From positions 1 through 47,447 of the IMG/VR virus record IMGVR_UViG_3300045988_093480: DNA of 47,447 bases. One strand, given 5' to 3'. The position numbers were made by a program, and so were the translations under genes. Shown here piece by piece: positions 14,669 to 36,260 of this stretch; position 1 is the first letter of the stretch; each line of letters starts with the position of its first letter. Below the pieces are notes generated by a model, which had not been told where the DNA came from, searched no databases, and was given only the letters and a program-made list of their open reading frames with translations. The DNA is from a virus.

Positions 14669-16653
14669 CTTTCATTAAAAATTATAGAACTTGTAATATT
14701 TCCATCGCTTGCAATTTTTAAGTCGTATTCACCAGGAGGGATTTCAAAAAATTCACTCCCTATATCTATATGTTGCATATTTTTAACACCATTTATATAA
14801 ACTTCATTATTGGCAAAATCAACTTTCAATTCGTCACCTTCTTTGAAAATTATTATATCTTGCTCTTCATCTTCTCCATCTTCATTCAGCTTATTTATTA
14901 CCAATCTATTAAATGTCATTGTATCAACGACTTCTTTGTCAGCATATTTTCCAAAAAAGATAACTATATGATTCAAATCGCCTATAGGAAACTTGTCATT
15001 TTTTGTAGTCTCGCTTGGTAAAGTTTTTTCAATTTCGCCAGCTTCATTATATTTAACTACTTCCGCATACCATTCGTTATTTTCTCTTTTTATAGTAAAA
15101 TGACCTTTAAATTCATTCCAGTTTCCATATTTACCGCTTCTAGGAGTTTTCTTTGTAACTGTCAAACTATCATCAGAACCACTTACTGTTATAACGGGTT
15201 TAGGCTCAGGCACACTAAAATCCTTATCTTTTAAAAACTCTGTATTCCCAATTTGTACAAGCGGGTAAACCGCCTCAAAGTATTCATTTTCATCACATAA
15301 CATAACTTTAAACAGCTTATTCCCAGCTTGGTCAAATCCATATCCTTCTACCATCCCAACTTTATCCTCAGCTGTGTTAACTTCTCTATCTGTTTCGATT
15401 TGTACTTTATCACCTTCAATAATATAATCTGTGTAAACATAACCTGTTTTACCTTTGTAAGTTGCTTTAGTCCATTTACCTTTACTTGACGTAATTTTCG
15501 GGCACACAACAATAGCAGTACCTTTAGGTATTGTCGCTAAAAGTTTAGAACTTTTGCTTCCTGACGCCCTTAAAGATGCTGCTTGTTTTGTGTAATATGT
15601 AGCTGTTGTAGTTGTTATTTTACTTAATCCAGTTGAAATTTTAACCCAACCAGTTTTTTCACTATAAGTAGTTTTTATCCAGCCATTTACAACTTCACTT
15701 GCAGTTAGATAAACACCTTTTTTAATACTTAATAAAGTTTTACTTTTGGATAATCTTTTCTCTTTTAGTTTCACAGTTGTAGCAGTTACTTTATATCTAG
15801 TTGTTTTAGTTGTATCTGTAGAGCCAAATTCGTTATATTCTAGTTTTCCCGTTGAATCATGATAAAAATATAAACTGCATTCGAAATCAGTAACATTAGA
15901 GGGCAAATTATATCGTAATGCTGGTCCATGCCAATCAGTCCCACTACCATAATCTGATGCTCGTATACACCAACTAGAACCTCCGTCATTAGGTTGAATA
16001 GTACCAGTTATAGTTCGTTTTGCATCAACTTCACCTGTTACTGAAACAAAATTTTCGGTAGTTTCGCAAGGCTCGTAAACAATAGTGGTACTTTTTTCTT
16101 TTTTTTCATTAGTTAAACTAGGGTATTGCCCTATAAGCACAGCTTTTCCATCTTGACCATCTATTTGACAATAAGTCGCATTACTATTAAAATCAACTTC
16201 AATAATTGCTGGAGTACTTGCATTACCTTCATTTGTAACAGTTATCTTTTTTTCTCCATTGAAAATTTTTGCATCAGAATTATAAGAAAAAGGTATCGTA
16301 CATATGAAAGATGTTGAAAATCTTCGCATTCCATTCATTATATACTCTTTTGGAGTTTTCCCATTTGGAATAGCTAGGTATATTCGTCCATTTTCATTTA
16401 TGATCAATTCTTTTTCTTCGTCTACATCAAATACACTTGATATAGTATCTATAGCATCTTGTAAATCTTCTTCTGTGCTTGCTTTTATGTCATATCCTAT
16501 GTCTATTTGCTTATAGTCATACTTACTATCCTGTAGAACCCTTCCATTTCTAGAGGGTATATCTGTAAAAGTATTTATTTTATCAAACACATTAGTACTT
16601 ATGCTGAATACTTTTACAAACTGTTCTAAATCTATACCATTAAATTTAAACAT
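14656..16653 (-). CDS. Distal tail protein (Dit, Sipho_tail family) with an internal tandem SH3b-like insertion
   Basis: N-terminus resembles Sipho_tail. Two SH3b-like units (GWIKTTYSEKTGWV and KWTKATYKGKTGYVYTDYI). Position between TMP and Tal. Confidence 0.8.
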   Translation of the reverse strand: MFKFNGIDLEQFVKVFSISTNVFDKINTFTDIPSRNGRVLQDSKYDYKQIDIGYDIKASTEEDLQDAIDTISSVFDVDEEKELIINENGRIYLAIPNGKTPKEYIMNGMRRFSTSFICTIPFSYNSDAKIFNGEKKITVTNEGNASTPAIIEVDFNSNATYCQIDGQDGKAVLIGQYPSLTNEKKEKSTTIVYEPCETTENFVSVTGEVDAKRTITGTIQPNDGGSSWCIRASDYGSGTDWHGPALRYNLPSNVTDFECSLYFYHDSTGKLEYNEFGSTDTTKTTRYKVTATTVKLKEKRLSKSKTLLSIKKGVYLTASEVVNGWIKTTYSEKTGWVKISTGLSKITTTTATYYTKQAASLRASGSKSSKLLATIPKGTAIVVCPKITSSKGKWTKATYKGKTGYVYTDYIIEGDKVQIETDREVNTAEDKVGMVEGYGFDQAGNKLFKVMLCDENEYFEAVYPLVQIGNTEFLKDKDFSVPEPKPVITVSGSDDSLTVTKKTPRSGKYGNWNEFKGHFTIKRENNEWYAEVVKYNEAGEIEKTLPSETTKNDKFPIGDLNHIVIFFGKYADKEVVDTMTFNRLVINKLNEDGEDEEQDIIIFKEGDELKVDFANNEVYINGVKNMQHIDIGSEFFEIPPGEYDLKIASDGNITSSIIFNERWLD

Positions 16654-19594
16654 TTTCTATACCCTCCAATCTATTTAATCTTTTTAATTCTGTATTATTA
16701 TAATCATCTATTGGTTTTGCTATTGTTTTAGCGAGTGTACTTCCACCAACTTTTGTTTCAACATAAATAGGATTTTTAGCAGTTGCTTTTCCTATTTTTT
16801 CTATATCTTCGTCATTAAGTTTTAAACTTATATTTGTGTTATTTATAATATTGCTTGAATTATTATTACTTGCATTTATAGCAAATGATGTCATTTCACC
16901 TTGAACAGCAATTTTCATTCTATTAGATATTTCTGTTGATATTTCTCTAGCTTTTGCATATACTTGTTGAGCTTTATTTTTCATACCAACAATCCAACCT
17001 TCATCTAAGTTTTCTCCATAATCAGTAGTTATTTTTGAAGGAGAATTTATTTTAGCAGTTTTTTTCATTTCAGCATTAACTTGATTAACAAGACTTCTTG
17101 CAGCACTAACCGCTCTTGAAGTACCGCTTTGTATACCCTTTGTAACTCCATTAGCCATCTGTTGACCAATTTGTGTCGCTTGAGTCCTAGCTACATTTTT
17201 CATACTTATCATTTGTCTCGTAAAATTATTTCTAGCTTGTGTACTTTGAGTAGTTATAACATTTTTCATGCTTATCATTTGTGTCGTAACTGCATTTCTT
17301 GCATTAGTAGCTTGAGTTCTAGAAACTTTGCTTATAGATATCATCTGTCTTGTAATAGCATTTCTAGCTTGTGTACTTTGAGTATTAGCTACATTTTTAA
17401 TAGAAATAAACTGAGTGGTAAATGAGTTTCTTGCATTGCTAGATTGATTTCTAATAACATTACTCATAGATACCATCTGATTCCTAATTATATTAGCACT
17501 GCCGACAAAGCTTTCTCTCAATGAGTTTCTTAACGATTGAAAACTATTAGCTGCACTATTCGATACAGTAGCAATTGTACTTTCTATCATTTTTAAATCA
17601 TCTTTTAGCTGTTGTAATTCACTTGAATCCATAGAAGCTAATTTAGATGTTAAGCTATCGCTTAATCCTGTACCTATTTCCTCAGCTCCTGCAGATGCAT
17701 TTTCTTTTGCTGAATCAGTTAAGTTTTTAGCATATTGCTTACCAGCTTCAGTCCCTTTTTCTCCAATTTCAGCAGCATAAGATTCTGGAAAAAGTTTGTC
17801 TTTTATCCAATTACCTATACCACTAAGACCTTGCCCTAATGCAGAATCCCAAAATCCAACACTATTTTTACCAGCATCTTTAAGATTTGTCCCATCTCCA
17901 TTTAAACCTAAATGACTTAATACTCCTTCGCCTGTGCCTCCTAGAGCTTTCCAAAGTCCAGCCCCTGCACCTTCTATAATTTCAGGGATTAGTTTTAATT
18001 TTATTTTAGCTTGGAATACCTTTCCTTCTATATATAATCTTACTGCTTCCTCAGTAGCTTTATTTAAAGCTTCTCCTATTTCATCTTGATTTTGCTCAAA
18101 TGCATCTGATAAAGCCTGTATTATTGCATGTCCTGCATCTCCTATACTTCCTGCGTTTTTAGATACAAATTCGGCACCTTGAGAAAAAAGGCTGCTCAAA
18201 GTTGTCGTTATAGTACTTTGATTTTTTGTTATACCATTACATATATTAGATATAAGACTTGTCCCTGTACTAAAAAACTTAGGGCCTTGTTTAGTTACAG
18301 CACTTTCTATACCATTAAATGCATTAGTCATCAAGCTTGGTATACTTTTAAAACTTTCTTTTAATCCACTTGTAAGTTTTGTAACAGCTCCATCTACGTT
18401 GCCATTAACTAATAAATTCAAACTATCTCCTAATAAATCACAAAATTCACTCAAAGCAGGAGCGCAATCACTCATTATAGATAATCCTAAACCACTAGCA
18501 GCAGAACCTAAACGCATTATAGCACCCTTTAAAGATGTATCTATTATTTCTTGAGCTTTTTCAGCTGCTGACTGTGTTTCTTCTATAGCTTTTGTTGTTT
18601 TGTCAAACTCATCTGGAGTAAGTGAACATAATTCATTTACTTGATCTATTGAATCTGCTAATCCTAACTGTGTTAATATTGCTTCTCTTTCGTTTTTAGT
18701 TTTATCTCTAAGAGCTTCTACTACATTTTTTAAAGAAGCACTATAATTTAATGAATTATCGTCATTTTTTTCTATTTGAATTCCATATTTCTTCATTATT
18801 TTTTCTTGGCTTGCTGATGCATTATTTAGTTTGCTGAATACAGTGAATAAACTTTCAATGTCGTTACTTGTTACCTTTCCATCTTTTCCAAGTAATGTTA
18901 TTGATTTAGTTAAATCCGTAGATGATATTCCTAATGCATCCGCCATATCTTTTGACTCTTGAAATACAGAATGTAATTTTTCTAATCTTTTTTCAGTTTG
19001 CTTACTTGATAAGCCCATGTCTTCACATTCTTTTTTCCAATAAGTCATGCTTTCGGTAGAACCCTGTATGCTTTGCTTTAGACTTTCGTAATCTTTTTGA
19101 CTTGCATTTATAATAGCAAGTCCTCCAGCCATACCAGTTTTACCAAATAAAGTTTTAGCTGCAGCTGCCTGCTCTTTAAGAGGTAATTTACCTAAACTAC
19201 TTCTTAAATTTTGCATAGTAGCATCTAGGTCTACAGAGCCATCAGCACTTTCTTTAAGTGTTATATTATATTTGTCCATAGCCTTTTGTACGGTAGTAGT
19301 TGGGCCGGATAAATTAGTTAACATTGTACGTAAACTCGTGCCTCCCAAACTTGCTTTAATTCCGACGTTGGCTAAAAGGCCTGTAGCGAGTGCTAAATCT
19401 TCGAATTGTACACCTAAAGAACCTGCTACTGGAGCAACATATTTCATTGTTTCACCCATCATTTCAACATTTGTGTTAGAACGAGTGATGGTAGCTGCAA
19501 ACATATCAACCATGTCACCACAATCTGTAGCTTGCATACCCATTGCAGTTATTGTATCAGTCACTATATCAGATGTTGTACCAAGGTCAGCACT
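16646..19594 (-). CDS. Tape measure protein, proposed exon 2
   Basis: The frame is open upstream of the track start and reads SADLGTTSDIVTDTITAMGMQATD...MGETMKYVAPVAGSLG...GIKASLGGTSLR, the TP901-type TMP core. Confidence 0.75.
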   Translation of the reverse strand, partial: SADLGTTSDIVTDTITAMGMQATDCGDMVDMFAATITRSNTNVEMMGETMKYVAPVAGSLGVQFEDLALATGLLANVGIKASLGGTSLRTMLTNLSGPTTTVQKAMDKYNITLKESADGSVDLDATMQNLRSSLGKLPLKEQAAAAKTLFGKTGMAGGLAIINASQKDYESLKQSIQGSTESMTYWKKECEDMGLSSKQTEKRLEKLHSVFQESKDMADALGISSTDLTKSITLLGKDGKVTSNDIESLFTVFSKLNNASASQEKIMKKYGIQIEKNDDNSLNYSASLKNVVEALRDKTKNEREAILTQLGLADSIDQVNELCSLTPDEFDKTTKAIEETQSAAEKAQEIIDTSLKGAIMRLGSAASGLGLSIMSDCAPALSEFCDLLGDSLNLLVNGNVDGAVTKLTSGLKESFKSIPSLMTNAFNGIESAVTKQGPKFFSTGTSLISNICNGITKNQSTITTTLSSLFSQGAEFVSKNAGSIGDAGHAIIQALSDAFEQNQDEIGEALNKATEEAVRLYIEGKVFQAKIKLKLIPEIIEGAGAGLWKALGGTGEGVLSHLGLNGDGTNLKDAGKNSVGFWDSALGQGLSGIGNWIKDKLFPESYAAEIGEKGTEAGKQYAKNLTDSAKENASAGAEEIGTGLSDSLTSKLASMDSSELQQLKDDLKMIESTIATVSNSAANSFQSLRNSLRESFVGSANIIRNQMVSMSNVIRNQSSNARNSFTTQFISIKNVANTQSTQARNAITRQMISISKVSRTQATNARNAVTTQMISMKNVITTQSTQARNNFTRQMISMKNVARTQATQIGQQMANGVTKGIQSGTSRAVSAARSLVNQVNAEMKKTAKINSPSKITTDYGENLDEGWIVGMKNKAQQVYAKAREISTEISNRMKIAVQGEMTSFAINASNNNSSNIINNTNISLKLNDEDIEKIGKATAKNPIYVETKVGGSTLAKTIAKPIDDYNNTELKRLNRLEGIENV
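17150..17500 (-). repeat. About five tandem 66-bp (22-aa) repeats inside the tape measure gene
   Basis: Peptide repeats of the form TQ(A/S)TxARNxxTxQMISMKNV seen in translation. Confidence 0.8.
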
Positions 19595-19962
19595 CGGTTT
19601 GTTATCATTGAGCTTTTTATCTCAATTTCTAGGGCATTACTCCCATTACCTCATGTCAATTCATGAGTAGTCCAGCATACCTTGTTATGTAGTTGCTAAT
19701 CGGCACATAGAACGGCCTCGTGGATGAATTATACTCTTACATCATAAGTGTAAGTATCATCATCTATGCGTTGCCCCTGACTGTTATTACTAACATCACT
19801 AATTTCCATTATTTATTTAATAAATAATTTTATATAGATTAGACTTTTAAAAGTCGCCTTCGGTTCTGATTGCGGTATAATATACACCCGCCTCCCAGCT
19901 TAATTCCGTTCTAATTATCTTAGGACTTCCACCGACTTTGTCCTAAGACGGCAATTTTGTTT
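19595..19962 (-). other. ORF-less structured intervening sequence in the TMP gene (putative group I-like self-splicing intron)
   Basis: Interrupts a conserved TMP motif. The last exon base is U and the last insert base is G. Contains a 10-bp hairpin at 19917..19949 and the long-range pairing 19906..19912 / 19709..19715. No ORF. Confidence 0.55.
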
Positions 19963-20529
19963 ACCTATTTGTGCTAATCGGAGAACGCTCGGTAATCCAG
20001 CTATTGATTCTTGAGCAGACCAACCAGCCATACTCGTATATTTTAACCCTTCTGCTGCATCTGTAGCGGTAAATTGTGTTTCACGACCTAACTTAGCCGT
20101 TATATCTAGTAACTGTTGGAATTCGCTTGTAGTTGCTCCTGATATAGCTTGTACTTCCTTCATAGTTGCATTGTAAGAAGTATATTCACTTATAATATCT
20201 CCTATAGAGGTAGGGATTCCACCTATTTGAGCTAATGAGTCCCATATTTGCCCTCCAATATCAAGAGCGACACTGCCAATATTTTTTAAAACCCCTGTAA
20301 CTTCTGTTAAAGCTGTTACACCTAATTTATGTACTGCTTTAAAACCTACAACTAATGCAGAAACTGATAGTGTTGCTGCTTTAGCTGCGGGCGAAAGTGA
20401 AGAAAACTTATCTACTAAACTTTTTAATCCTTTATTTGCTATAGAGTCAAGTTCTTTTATTCCTGACTGGAGTCCAGTATTATCTAATGCAGTATCTATA
20501 ATAATTTGACCATCACTGATAAGCTCCAC
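19963..20529 (-). CDS. Tape measure protein, proposed exon 1
   Basis: 189 codons ending ...AGLPSVLRLAQIG. The track ORF then continues 15 codons into the insert before a stop. The GTG start overlaps the SD, so the start is uncertain. Confidence 0.7.
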
Positions 20530-35601: not shown

Positions 35602-36150
35602 TTAATCCTCCACATATCCCCATTTTAATTTTTCACCTGTTACTGGGTGTTTCCCAGCTGACTTCTTTTTCCCTCTGCAACATTTAGAAATATCTGATTG
35701 ACAAATTCCTGTTAATCTTTCTGCTTCTCTAGTAGACCCATATTTTTTACCAGTATCTATACATATAACTTTTCTAGACAAACTATTATCTTTACCTTTT
35801 TTAGCTTTTTGTAATCCTGTTCTGTATGCGTGCTTCATATTTTCTTCTTGAGTACACCATTCTAAGTTTGATACTGTATTATTTTGTTTATTACCATCTA
35901 TGTGATTTACTTGCGGTTTGTTTTCTGGATTAAGTATAAATGCCTGAGCTACTAAGCGATGTACTTTATGTTTTTTGATATTAGAATTTGCACTTAATGT
36001 AATATAATAATATCCACAATTATCTTTATACTGCTTTAATATTTTTTCTCTGTACTTTTTGTTTTTATCTCTTAAACTTTTAACTCTTCCTAAATTGCTA
36101 ATTTGATATAATCCTTTGTAATTTTTTATATCTTTCCAAATTTCGTTCAT
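35602..36150 (-). CDS. HNH homing endonuclease (NUMOD4 + HNH + C-terminal DNA-binding module)
   Basis: WKDIKNYKGLYQISNLGRV; NHIDGNKQNN..NLEW..QEENMKH. Start at the ATG at 36150, after GAAGGTGA. Confidence 0.85.
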   Translation of the reverse strand: MNEIWKDIKNYKGLYQISNLGRVKSLRDKNKKYREKILKQYKDNCGYYYITLSANSNIKKHKVHRLVAQAFILNPENKPQVNHIDGNKQNNTVSNLEWCTQEENMKHAYRTGLQKAKKGKDNSLSRKVICIDTGKKYGSTREAERLTGICQSDISKCCRGKKKSAGKHPVTGEKLKWGYVED

Positions 36151-36260
36151 TTTTATCACCTTCTTTAGTATGATTTTATCATACTTTGTCATACTTTATC
36201 AAGTATTTTAGATTTATTTTCATATAAAGTTATGATATAATACCACTAAGAGGTGATAAT

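What the first reader, a model, noticed from the sequence alone, without database searches (positions are those of the whole stretch)
19595..19962. Tape measure gene split by a 368-nt ORF-less structured insert (putative self-splicing intron)
ORFs 19915..20529 and 16646..19564 look like two halves of one TP901/PhageMin_Tail-type tape measure protein. The upstream frame reads ...AGLPSVLRLAQIG and then runs 15 unrelated codons into a stop. The downstream frame is open 10 codons above its track start and reads SADLGTTSDIVTDTITAMGMQ... Joining GGU (exon end 19963) to AGU (exon start 19594) keeps the frame and gives VLRLAQIG-SADLGTTSDIVTD, which aligns without a gap to the conserved core motif of this family as I remember it (..vlnlAaaggvdlaeaadi..). 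That junction also makes the last exon base a U and the last insert base a G, the group I intron rule. The insert has no ORF, looks more G+C-rich than its flanks, and is dense in helices: a 10-bp hairpin at 19917..19949; a long-range 7-bp pairing AGAACGG (19906..19912) with CCGTTCT (19709..19715) followed by AAU, as expected for P3/J3-4; and three 5-6-bp hairpins near the 3' end. I could not fold a convincing P1 or P7 by eye, so the intron class and exact boundaries remain hypotheses.
Basis: partly seen in the sequence, partly recalled or inferred. Interest (0 to 1): 0.85.

Follow-up and report, generated by a model that had tools for sequence, protein, structure and literature searches.

The report
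Group I intron splitting tape-measure gene
A 368-base, protein-less self-splicing RNA (a group I intron) interrupts the tail tape-measure gene of this phage. It is a well-supported but fairly ordinary new example of something already described in other phages of Gram-positive bacteria.

Summary
ORFs 19915..20529 and 16646..19564 (minus strand) are two halves of one tape measure gene, split by a 368-nt ORF-less insert at exactly 19595..19962. Joining GGT(19963) to AGT(19594) restores one PhageMin_Tail domain (positions 6-201 of 201, 167 bits). It aligns without a gap to more than 30 uninterrupted homologues; the closest reads LRLAQIGSADLGTTSDIVTD across the junction.

Rfam finds nothing here, even at E<=10. 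But the insert belongs to a large phage intron family: 68 IMG/VR loci, the annotated AR9/PBS1 gyrA introns and phage c-st. Three members pass Rfam's group I threshold.

A covariance model built from 12 family members outside the window's own cluster hits the window once, at 19674..19911 (93.5 bits, E about 1e-20). The helices P1-P9 are supported by covariation: 92-94% of cells paired against 33-43% in slid controls. There is an arm between P7 and P3', which marks subgroup IA.

Tape measure introns are already published (Bacillus cereus-group prophages, 2008). One point of interest: a nearly identical phage carries the same intron 63 nt upstream. Splicing itself is untested.

The parts
19963..20529 (-). 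Exon 1 of the tape measure gene (189 codons, ends ...LRLAQIG; last base U of GGU)
   Evidence: ORF list. PhageMin_Tail positions 6-50. Contiguous with exon 2 in homologues.
19595..19962 (-). Group I intron, 368 nt, no ORF. First base A (19962), last base G (19595).
   Evidence: Boundaries come from empty-site alleles in L051, L004 and L071. Similarity of 94-95% to L004/L051 starts and stops within 3 nt of these coordinates. Stops in all frames.
16646..19594 (-). Exon 2 of the tape measure gene (982 codons plus stop, starts SADLGTTSDIVTD)
   Evidence: PhageMin_Tail positions 53-201. No Shine-Dalgarno-like sequence before any in-frame start in the first 150 nt.
19950..19965 (-). P1: exon GGU plus intron AA (19965..19961) paired with the internal guide UUGCC (19954..19950). 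U.G wobble at the 5' splice site.
   Evidence: Read directly from the sequence. Invariant in all 11 full-length relatives aligned. UGCC about 30 nt before P3, with GGT|A shortly upstream, is seen in most family clusters.
19915..19917 (-). In-frame TAA that stops ribosomes coming from exon 1. It lies just past the 3' strand of P2 and upstream of the catalytic core.
   Evidence: This placement is described as general for phage group I introns in PMC2504315.
19918..19948 (-). P2 hairpin (UCUUAGGAC / GUCCUAAGA)
   Evidence: MFE and centroid fold. 6 of 9 pairs show changes on both sides in relatives.
19906..19912 (-). P3 5' strand AGAACGG, followed by J3/4 AAU
   Evidence: Pairs with 19709..19715. 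The helix is 93-96% paired. All 7 pairs covary in A2 and A3, and 4 of 7 in A4.
19866..19898 (-). P4 (CUGG/UCAG) enclosing the P5 hairpin (GCGG..CCGC)
   Evidence: The covariance model alignment. Covariation CUG/CAG to CAG/CUG in c-st.
19776..19863 (-). P6 (CC/GG), GAA/A internal loop, P6a (GGC/GUC) and an extension of about 60 nt (P6a', AT-rich P6b, P6c with a GUAA loop)
   Evidence: The extension is an insertion relative to compact family members (59 nt skipped in the model alignment).
19765..19769 (-). P7 5' strand GCAUA (within the conserved R element GGGGCAACGCAUAGAU)
   Evidence: Pairs with UAUGC at 19675..19679. Invariant in the family: 100% paired, no covariation possible.
19723..19764 (-). 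P7.1 (GAUGA/UCAUC) and P7.2 (CUUACA/UGUAAG): the arm between P7 and P3' that marks subgroup IA
   Evidence: 100% and 98-100% paired, with compensatory changes in the inner pairs.
19709..19715 (-). P3 3' strand CCGUUCU, preceded by the conserved CACGAG
   Evidence: See P3 5' strand.
19687..19708 (-). P8 hairpin (AUGU..ACAU)
   Evidence: The least well aligned helix across the family (66-85% paired).
19675..19679 (-). P7 3' strand UAUGC, preceded by J8/7 AACAAGG (S element)
19607..19670 (-). P9 domain: P9 (CUA/UAG), P9a (CUCAUG/CAUGAG), P9b (GGG/CCC) and P9.2 (AUUGAG/CUCAAU with the conserved loop AUAAAAAG). It is followed by the tail GAUAACAAACCG, which ends in the terminal G.
   Evidence: Compensatory changes occur even among the 93-95%-identical copies: CUCAUG/CAUGAG, CCCAUG/CAUGGG, UCCAUG/CAUGGA, UUCAUG/CAUGAA.
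19674..19911 (-). Extent of the match to covariance model R1 (core, P3 to P7')
   Evidence: 93.5 bits, E = 7e-21, model positions 1-167 of 167. It is the only hit in 47 kb on both strands.

Best explanation
The insert is an ORF-less group I intron of subgroup IA. It lies in phase 0 inside the conserved PhageMin_Tail domain of the phage's tape measure gene.

Proposed mechanism (standard group I chemistry, inferred and not tested here):
- The late transcript folds so that the last exon bases GGU, plus the first two intron bases, pair with the internal guide UUGCC. This is P1, with a U.G wobble at the splice site.
- The two core domains, P4-P6 and P3-P7-P8, dock P1.
- A free guanosine bound in P7 attacks after U19963.
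- The terminal G19595 then takes the guanosine site, and the freed exon 1 attacks after it. This ligates GGU to AGU and releases the intron.
- Translation of the spliced mRNA gives one 1171-residue tape measure protein that reads ...LRLAQIG-SADLGTTSDIVTD...
- On unspliced RNA, ribosomes stop at a TAA just past P2, before they reach the catalytic core.

The intron belongs to a widespread family in phages of low-G+C Gram-positive hosts. All family members examined use the same 3-nt exon contact, GGU with GCC. Some members carry endonuclease-sized ORFs and others, like this one, have none. The intron has clearly moved horizontally: copies 93-95% identical sit in tape measure genes that are only about 70% identical.
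For: Shown:
1. One domain is split and is restored by the join.
2. More than 30 homologues are uninterrupted, and the alignment at the junction has no gap.
3. Reciprocal empty sites in L051/L004 and the window fix both boundaries.
4. Covariance model R1, built from 12 introns outside the window's cluster, gives a single hit at 19674..19911 with 93.5 bits and E about 1e-20.
5. The same model hits L011, L060 and L039, which pass Rfam RF00028's gathering score at 55.9, 57.6 and 50.7 bits. It also hits both introns annotated as joins in AR9 gyrA.
6. Covariation is strong.
   - A2: 93.9% of cells paired against 29-39% slid, and 29 of 43 pairs change on both sides.
   - A3: 89.5% paired, and 35 of 37 pairs change on both sides.
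   - Full-length A4: 92.3% paired against 33-43% slid.
7. Compensatory changes occur among the near-identical copies in P2, P3, P6c, P9a and P9.2, so the fold is under current selection.
8. The exon ends in U, the intron ends in G, the insertion is in phase, and an early in-frame stop is present. These match the general properties of phage group I introns (PMC2504315).
9. There is no ribosome-binding site for an independent exon 2 product.
10. The surrounding phage genome has an apparently complete set of head, tail and lysis genes.
Against: - Rfam 15 gives no group I hit on the window, at gathering or at E<=10.
- P1 has only three exon base pairs, and P10 is weak (3 bp here, about 0-1 bp in relatives).
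- P1 and P7 are invariant in the family, so they have no covariation support.
- The thermodynamic z-score is only -2.1.
- No RNA data, so splicing is inferred.
- No homing endonuclease gene lies in or next to the intron, so the means of its mobility is unexplained.
- The IA1 versus IA2 assignment is unresolved.
Confidence: 0.9

Rival explanations
1. The insert is a real group I intron by descent but has lost activity. It would be a decaying, ORF-less remnant, the tape measure gene would be broken, and the window would be a defective prophage.
For: It has no ORF. The AT-rich P6b extension of about 60 nt could be a scar from loss of an endonuclease gene. Rfam does not hit it. P1 is short and P10 is weak. 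No expression data exist.
Against: Compensatory substitutions keep P2, P3, P6c, P9a and P9.2 paired among copies only 5-20% diverged. The same intron is kept in at least three different phage backbones and in a helicase gene. Both exons keep long open frames with conserved domain sequence. The rest of the phage gene set appears intact. The exact portal protein occurs in 236 blocks of public assemblies, so the phage lineage is widespread.
Confidence: 0.06
2. There is no splicing. The tape measure function is supplied by two separately translated polypeptides (204 aa and about 972 aa), a genuine split gene with a structured spacer.
For: Gene callers list two ORFs, and the second has a possible GTG start at 19564.
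Against: The break falls in the middle of a single Pfam domain. More than 30 homologues are contiguous there and none shares this split with independent starts. No Shine-Dalgarno-like sequence precedes any in-frame start of exon 2. The spacer matches a ribozyme covariance model at E about 1e-20. Close relatives have the same spacer at a different position, which a fixed domain boundary would not predict.
Confidence: 0.02
3. The insert is another kind of mobile element (a MITE or IS fragment, or a group II intron), or it marks a translational bypass site.
For: It is a discrete insertion that is absent from homologues. A related phage (L074) does carry a group II intron about 45 nt upstream of the window's site in the same gene.
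Against: There are no terminal inverted repeats (best 14 of 40 matches) and no target-site duplication. There is no GUGYG 5' end and no RF00029 domain V/VI hit at gathering or at E<=10. 368 nt is far beyond known bypass gaps (the T4 gene 60 gap is about 50 nt, from memory). The P, Q, R and S elements and all core helices of group I are present.
Confidence: 0.01

Closest known systems
Group I introns TMP-IVS1, IVS2 and IVS3 in tape measure genes of Bacillus cereus-group prophages (Tourasse & Kolsto, NAR 2008, PMC2504315). That paper's Table 3 also cites an intron in the tape measure gene of Lactobacillus delbrueckii phage JCL1032.
   Same: The host gene is of the same kind and the intron class is the same (IA1 or IA2). 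Most are ORF-less. They are inserted in frame with an early stop in P1 or P2. Several insertion positions occur within one gene. Near-identical introns are shared by different prophages.
   Different: The phage lineage differs: the nearest portal is 55% identical to the Clostridioides difficile phiCD38-2 group. I could not compare sequences with the Bacillus introns, because none was retrieved from the collections searched. In Bacillus the sister introns at two sites are 80% identical and have re-tuned P1 guides. Here the copies at two sites are about 93-94% identical and use the same GCC guide, because both exons end in GGU.
Introns of Bacillus jumbo phages AR9/PBS1 in gyrA (annotated as a three-piece join) and the unannotated insert between CST131 and CST130 of Clostridium botulinum phage c-st
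   Same: They belong to the same sequence family: about 80% identity over the R element and P7.1. P1 is identical (GGU|AA with UUGCC). The J3/4-P4 block GAUUAAGCNGGGAG, the P6 motif CCGAAGG, the P9.2 loop AUAAAAAG and the terminal G are shared. Both are hit by R1. In c-st the host gene is also a tape-measure-like gene (a YomI homologue).
   Different: The host genes and sites differ. AR9 has a long hairpin inserted in the P1 loop and lacks the P6 extension. c-st has a long P8 and an extra P9 hairpin. Neither is detected by Rfam at E<=1.
Classical phage subgroup IA2 introns (T4 td, nrdB and nrdD; SPO1 and Twort introns). The comparison with their sequences is from memory.
   Same: The core order is the same: P3-P4-P5-P6-P7-(P7.1/P7.2)-P3'-P8-P7'. 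The R element is of the form ..CAACG.CUAU.. and the S element of the form ..AGAUAUAGUC.. . The hosts are phages.
   Different: Here the segment between P7 and P3' is one long interrupted arm rather than two clearly separate hairpins, so IA1 versus IA2 is open. There is no intron-encoded endonuclease. Self-splicing has been shown for those introns and not for this one.

Membership tests
Group I intron | Conserved core helices P3, P4, P5, P6, P7 and P8 in the canonical order, with the P3/P7 pseudoknot | tested here: met
   The R1 match covers model positions 1-167 of 167. Helices are 84-100% paired with compensatory changes in A2, against 29-39% for slid controls. The full-length structure on 11 introns is 92.3% paired. 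P7 is 100% paired but invariant.
Group I intron | 5' splice site after a U that forms a U.G wobble in P1 with an internal guide sequence | tested here: met
   Exon GGU (19965..19963) plus AA pairs with UUGCC (19954..19950). The pairing is identical in all 11 aligned relatives and recurs across family clusters. There is no covariation because it is invariant.
Group I intron | Terminal G (omega G) as the last intron nucleotide | tested here: met
   G at 19595. All 11 full-length relatives end in G.
Group I intron | Match to the curated Rfam model RF00028 at gathering score | tested here: not met
   No hit on the window at gathering or at E<=10. RF00028 also misses 12 of the 15 family-bearing loci tested, as well as AR9 and c-st. 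It passes on family members L011, L060 and L039, which R1 links to the window. This is best read as a sensitivity limit of the model rather than evidence against membership.
Group I intron | Guanosine-dependent self-splicing with exon ligation | not testable with these tools
   Needs RT-PCR, RNA-seq or in vitro transcription with GTP and Mg2+.
Group I intron, subgroup IA | Extra helices (P7.1/P7.2 or P7.1/P7.1a) between the P7 5' strand and the P3 3' strand (criterion recalled from Michel & Westhof 1990) | tested here: met
   The arm at 19723..19764 has closing stem GAUGA/UCAUC and inner stem CUUACA/UGUAAG. It is 98-100% paired in the family, with compensatory changes. In the Rfam alignment of L011 this segment is an insertion relative to the generic model. 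IA1 versus IA2 was not resolved.
Mobile (homing) group I intron | Intron-encoded homing endonuclease gene | tested here: not met
   No ORF in any frame. The only endonuclease-like ORF in the window (NUMOD4 plus HNH_3, 35602..36192) is free-standing and 16 kb away. Some family members do carry downstream ORFs.
Group II intron | GUGYG 5' end, domain V/VI (RF00029), length of at least about 600 nt | tested here: not met
   No RF00029 hit at gathering or at E<=10. The 5' end is AAACA. The length is 368 nt.
PhageMin_Tail (PF10145) tape measure protein (host gene) | Single contiguous domain match above the Pfam cut-off | tested here: met
   Met only after the conceptual splice: positions 6-201 of 201, 167.3 bits, one stretch.

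The most novel reading that the evidence does not exclude
This ORF-less intron lineage may move between nearby sites without an endonuclease.

The window phage and L051 are 92-97% identical over more than 14 kb, and their introns are 93-94% identical. By my own visual count on the alignment, the identity is about 97% outside the AT-rich P6b loop. Yet the intron sits after AAUAGGU in one phage and 63 nt upstream, after GAAGGGU, in the other. Each phage is intact at the other's site. Intron lineages do not sort by site, and the same intron also sits after AGUGGU in a helicase Walker A motif.

The whole family contacts its exon through only three bases (GGU with GCC). Reverse splicing into any accessible GGU, followed by reverse transcription and recombination, could therefore explain the ectopic moves. 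That would be a natural phage example of a transposition route so far supported mainly by rRNA introns and by experiments.
Probability: 0.15. Interest if true: 0.6.

Novelty: new member of a known kind. Interest (0 to 1): 0.35.

Why it matters
Practical value. The tape measure gene of this phage and of its many metagenomic relatives will be annotated as two unrelated ORFs, because the standard Rfam group I model misses this intron subfamily. It detected 3 of the 15 family-bearing loci tested and missed AR9, c-st and the window. A family-specific model recovers all of them with E values from 1e-7 to 1e-37. Correct splicing matters for predicting tail length from the length of the tape measure protein, and for engineering such phages.

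Biological value. An 80-nt stretch of the conserved domain is shown to be an insertion hot spot in related phages: it has two group I sites and one group II site. The pair of near-identical phages with the same intron 63 nt apart is a clean natural system for asking how endonuclease-less group I introns change sites.

It does not change what is known about group I introns or about tape measure proteins.

Tried and rejected
1. Rfam 15 on the window, at gathering and at E<=10 over 19300..20250, gave no intron family, only chance-level snoRNA and miRNA hits. I rejected this as a refutation once it was clear that Rfam also misses the annotated AR9 introns.
2. Megablast of the tape measure region against GenBank phages gave no match, so the phage itself is undescribed there.
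3. The exact 26-mer of the window's subfamily was not found in GTDB representative genomes. A tape-measure protein scan of genomes returned only distant, uninterrupted homologues from Lentibacillus and Veillonella. The host was therefore not identified. It is inferred loosely as a low-G+C Clostridia-like bacterium from the 55% portal identity to C. difficile phages.
4. Megablast of the L011 intron against phages, meant to tie it to the published SPbeta nrdE intron, gave no match.
5. The plasmid collection gave only c-st-like C. botulinum phage-plasmids and no Bacillus tape measure introns.
6. The first 16-sequence alignment (A1) put the SPbeta-like subgroup one column out of register in P4. 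I dropped it in favour of the 12-sequence A2.
7. P10: I looked for pairing between the guide and the 3' exon. I found 3 bp in the window and essentially none at site A, so P10 does not explain the choice of site.
8. I compared sites A and B for a shared endonuclease recognition sequence. Only 7 of 13 upstream bases and 1 of 6 downstream bases agree, which is not persuasive.
9. A co-conversion signal: the 83 nt between the two sites is 87% identical between L004 and the window, against about 70-75% elsewhere. This is also the most conserved part of the domain, so the result is inconclusive.

Full report
**1. The observation**

On the minus strand, ORF 19915..20529 reads ...AGLPSVLRLAQIG and then runs through 15 unrelated codons into a TAA at 19915..19917. 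The frame that contains ORF 16646..19564 is open from 19594 and begins SADLGTTSDIVTD.

Pfam places the two pieces on adjacent parts of one domain. ORF1 residues 146-190 match PhageMin_Tail positions 6-50, and the downstream product matches positions 53-201. Joining GGT (ending at 19963) to AGT (starting at 19594) gives a 1171-residue product. It has one uninterrupted domain match, 6-201 of 201, at 167 bits. The N-terminal piece alone scores 32.7 bits, below the Pfam cut-off.

The 368 nt in between have stops in all three frames. There are no terminal inverted repeats and no target-site duplication.

**2. Uninterrupted homologues and exact boundaries**

A scan of IMG/VR for relatives of the 186 residues around the junction returned 38 loci. 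A tblastn check shows that more than 30 of them, including L071 at 83% identity, are contiguous across the junction.

In a protein alignment with seven uninterrupted homologues the conceptual splice introduces no gap. L071 reads LRLAQIGSADLGTTSDIVTD, identical to the joined window product. Four distant homologues in named genomes (Lentibacillus, Veillonella) are also contiguous. The "two-gene split shared by homologues" outcome that would have refuted the finding is therefore not seen.

**3. What the insert is**

Rfam 15 gives nothing on the window for group I or group II, at gathering or at E<=10. But blastn against GenBank phages matched the centre of the insert at about 80% identity to two places:
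- the gyrA gene of Bacillus phages AR9/PBS1, which is annotated as a join of three pieces, that is, with two introns;
- the gap between CST131 and CST130 of Clostridium phage c-st, which are annotated as the N-terminal and middle parts of a YomI-like tape-measure protein.

Reading those sequences showed shared blocks along the whole element:
- UUGCCGUCUUA
- GAUUAAGCNGGGAG
- CCGAAGG
- CAGGNGCAACGCAUAGAU
- AUCCACGAG
- AGAUAUGCU
- GGAUAAAAAGC
- a terminal G

These blocks correspond to the classical P, Q, R and S elements of group I introns.

A pattern built from the R element and the segment before P3' found 68 IMG/VR loci, which fall into 26 sequence clusters. Rfam RF00028 passes its gathering score on three of them: L011 (55.9 bits), L060 (57.6) and L039 (50.7). 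In the L011 alignment the shared motif falls on J6/7-P7, then an inserted arm, then P3'. RF00028 misses the other 12 family-bearing loci tested, and AR9 and c-st as well.

**4. Covariance-model test**

I trimmed 12 introns from clusters other than the window's to the core (P3 to P7') and aligned them as A2. I wrote the structure from base-pairing visible in the sequences. The counts were 93.9% of cells paired, against 29-39% when the 3' partners are slid by 1-3 columns. 29 of 43 pairs change on both sides, and 0 of 500 shuffles reach the observed values.

The model built from A2 (R1, 167 positions, 37 pairs) hits the window exactly once, at 19674..19911 on the minus strand. The match is full length, 93.5 bits, E = 7e-21.

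Over 79 sources R1 gives 74 hits. These include the three Rfam-positive introns and both AR9 gyrA introns. There are none in the uninterrupted tape measure loci. On the resulting alignment, which is fitted to the model and so leans towards it, 89.5% of cells pair and 35 of 37 pairs show double changes.

**5. Full anatomy in the window (RNA sense)**

| Element | Sequence or description |
|---|---|
| P1 | GGU\|AA with UUGCC |
| P2 | UCUUAGGAC / GUCCUAAGA |
| P4 | CUGG / UCAG |
| P5 | GCGG..CCGC |
| P6 | CC/GG, a GAA/A internal loop, then P6a GGC/GUC, with an extension of about 60 nt (three hairpins, one with a GUAA loop) |
| P7 | GCAUA / UAUGC |
| Arm between P7 and P3' | P7.1 GAUGA/UCAUC and P7.2 CUUACA/UGUAAG |
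| P8 | AUGU / ACAU |
| P9 domain | Three-way junction P9, P9a, P9b |
| P9.2 | Conserved loop AUAAAAAG |
| 3' tail | GAUAACAAACCG |

On 11 full-length introns (six of the window's subfamily, three c-st-type, two from AR9) this 98-pair structure is 92.3% paired, against 33-43% for slid controls. 27 pairs change on both sides.

Compensatory changes occur even among the 93-95%-identical copies. P9a reads CUCAUG/CAUGAG, CCCAUG/CAUGGG, UCCAUG/CAUGGA or UUCAUG/CAUGAA. P3 reads GAACGG/CCGUUC or GAGUGG/CCGCUC. The fold is therefore under present-day selection.

P1 and P7 are invariant, so they are supported by conservation only. The arm between P7 and P3' is the hallmark of subgroup IA (criterion from memory of Michel & Westhof 1990). 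I could not decide between IA1 and IA2.

Thermodynamics alone is unimpressive: -83.9 kcal/mol, z = -2.1. The centroid fold does recover P2, P4/P5, the P6 hairpins, P7.1, P8, P9a and P9.2.

**6. How it most likely works**

Standard group I chemistry is inferred, not shown. Exogenous G bound in P7 attacks after U19963. The terminal G19595 then replaces it, and the exons are ligated.

The intron lies between codons. The in-frame TAA just past P2 would stop ribosomes before they reach the core. PMC2504315 describes this as general for phage group I introns. No Shine-Dalgarno-like sequence precedes any in-frame start in exon 2, which argues against an independently translated C-terminal protein.

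**7. Context**

The window is a siphovirus-type genome with these genes: small and large terminase, portal, minor head protein, scaffold, tail genes, the split tape measure gene, Dit, a large tail protein, fibre-like proteins and an amidase.

The nearest described phages are the Clostridioides difficile phiCD38-2/phiCD111 group, at 55% portal identity. There is no near DNA match in GenBank phages. The identical portal protein is present in 236 blocks of public assemblies. The host is not identified.

**8. Mobility**

Copies of this particular intron were found in three kinds of place.

| Place | 5' exon end | Loci |
|---|---|---|
| Site B, the window's site | ...AAUAGGU | The window; L113, a divergent tape measure gene (92-93% intron identity) |
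| Site A, 63 nt upstream | ...GAAGGGU | L051; L004 (same contig as L114); L115 and L117 |
| Walker A motif (ATAGSG\|KT) of a UvrD-like helicase gene | ...AGUGGU | L042 (same sequence as L116) |

L004's tape measure exons are only about 70-75% identical to the window's, while its intron is about 94-95% identical. This shows horizontal spread.

Conversely, L051 is 92-97% identical to the window over more than 14 kb. It is collinear except that the intron, 93-94% identical overall, sits at site A instead of site B. Each phage provides the empty allele for the other.

Intron variants do not sort by site. The differences that track the site are confined to the P1 loop and the three bases before the terminal G.

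All 5' exons end in GGU, and the guide GCC is conserved across the family. The intron can therefore splice from any such site. How it gets there is unknown: by a trans-acting endonuclease, by recombination or by reverse splicing.

**9. Comparison with the literature**

Group I introns in prophage tape measure genes were described in the Bacillus cereus group. The reported features were:
- three positions within the gene;
- classes IA1 and IA2;
- introns mostly without an ORF;
- sister introns 80% identical at two sites, with adapted P1 guides.

The authors noted that it was puzzling how immobile introns reach different phages. An intron in the tape measure gene of Lactobacillus phage JCL1032 is cited there (PMC2504315).

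The present case is therefore a new member of a known kind, in a different phage lineage. Two modest twists are the invariant 3-nt guide and the 63-nt site difference between near-identical phages.

**10. Verdict**

Confidence that this is a group I intron by descent and structure is about 0.97. Confidence that it is splicing-competent and restores a single tape measure protein is about 0.9. Interest is moderate to low, 0.35.

Noticed in passing
L074 2328..2992 (also L075 and L105; IMG/VR contigs 3300045988_157167, 7000000736_000177, 3300045988_149962): A related tape measure gene (60% amino-acid identity) is split at a third site (..FQYMGM | AGFSLQE.., about 15 nt downstream of site A). The insert is about 665 nt, has no ORF, and carries a group II domain V/VI match (RF00029, 64 bits, at 2905..3000). 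Its ends, GTACG...TAT, are plausible for a group II intron. L073 is the uninterrupted allele. Group II introns in phages were considered absent until a 2025 survey (PMC12350094), which does not mention tape measure genes.
   Followed up: partly
window 19963..20045 and the homologous stretch in L004, L051 and L074: Within about 80 nt of the PhageMin_Tail domain, related phages carry three different intron insertion sites: two group I and one group II. This looks like an insertion hot spot in the most conserved part of the gene.
   Followed up: partly
window 2684..2795 (- strand): This looks like a small stand-alone transcription unit between the endolysin terminator (2835..2808) and a second terminator (2714..2684). 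It has an extended -10-like TGCTATAAT, then one sequence matching Rfam CRISPR-DR7 (2781..2745, 41.9 bits against a gathering score of 37), then about 30 nt. No second repeat was found nearby. It could be a solitary CRISPR repeat unit or a mini-array of the kind proposed to act as RNA anti-CRISPRs. It has not been tested.
   Followed up: partly
window 35602..36192 (- strand): A free-standing 196-aa ORF with NUMOD4 and HNH_3 domains, of the I-HmuI-like homing endonuclease type, lies 16 kb from the intron. Whether it has any role in moving the ORF-less intron is unknown.
   Followed up: no
L042 3605..3959 (same sequence as L116): The same intron subfamily (about 82-87% identical to the window's) interrupts the Walker A motif (ATAGSG|KT) of a UvrD/PcrA-like helicase gene, again after GGT. 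It has an extra 14 nt in the P1 loop.
   Followed up: partly
L018 1406..1574 and 2062..2220; L001 2445..2620 and 2898..3074: Two family introns lie within about 450-650 nt of each other in the same gene region (twice in L018, and twice in AR9 gyrA). This shows that multiple invasions of one gene by this family are common.
   Followed up: no
L002 345..406 (phage c-st, upstream of CST131): There is a strong RAGATH-18 RNA match (61 bits, E = 2e-10) next to an IS200/IS605-type OrfB transposase gene in phage c-st. It is unrelated to the intron.
   Followed up: no
Family loci L003, L028, L031, L034, L039: In these members the P7 3' strand is not found within 200 nt of P3', and an ORF begins in or after P8 (for example ATGTTAATAACACAAAAAG... 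in L028). These are presumably endonuclease-carrying versions of the same ribozyme family. The ORFs were not analysed.
   Followed up: no
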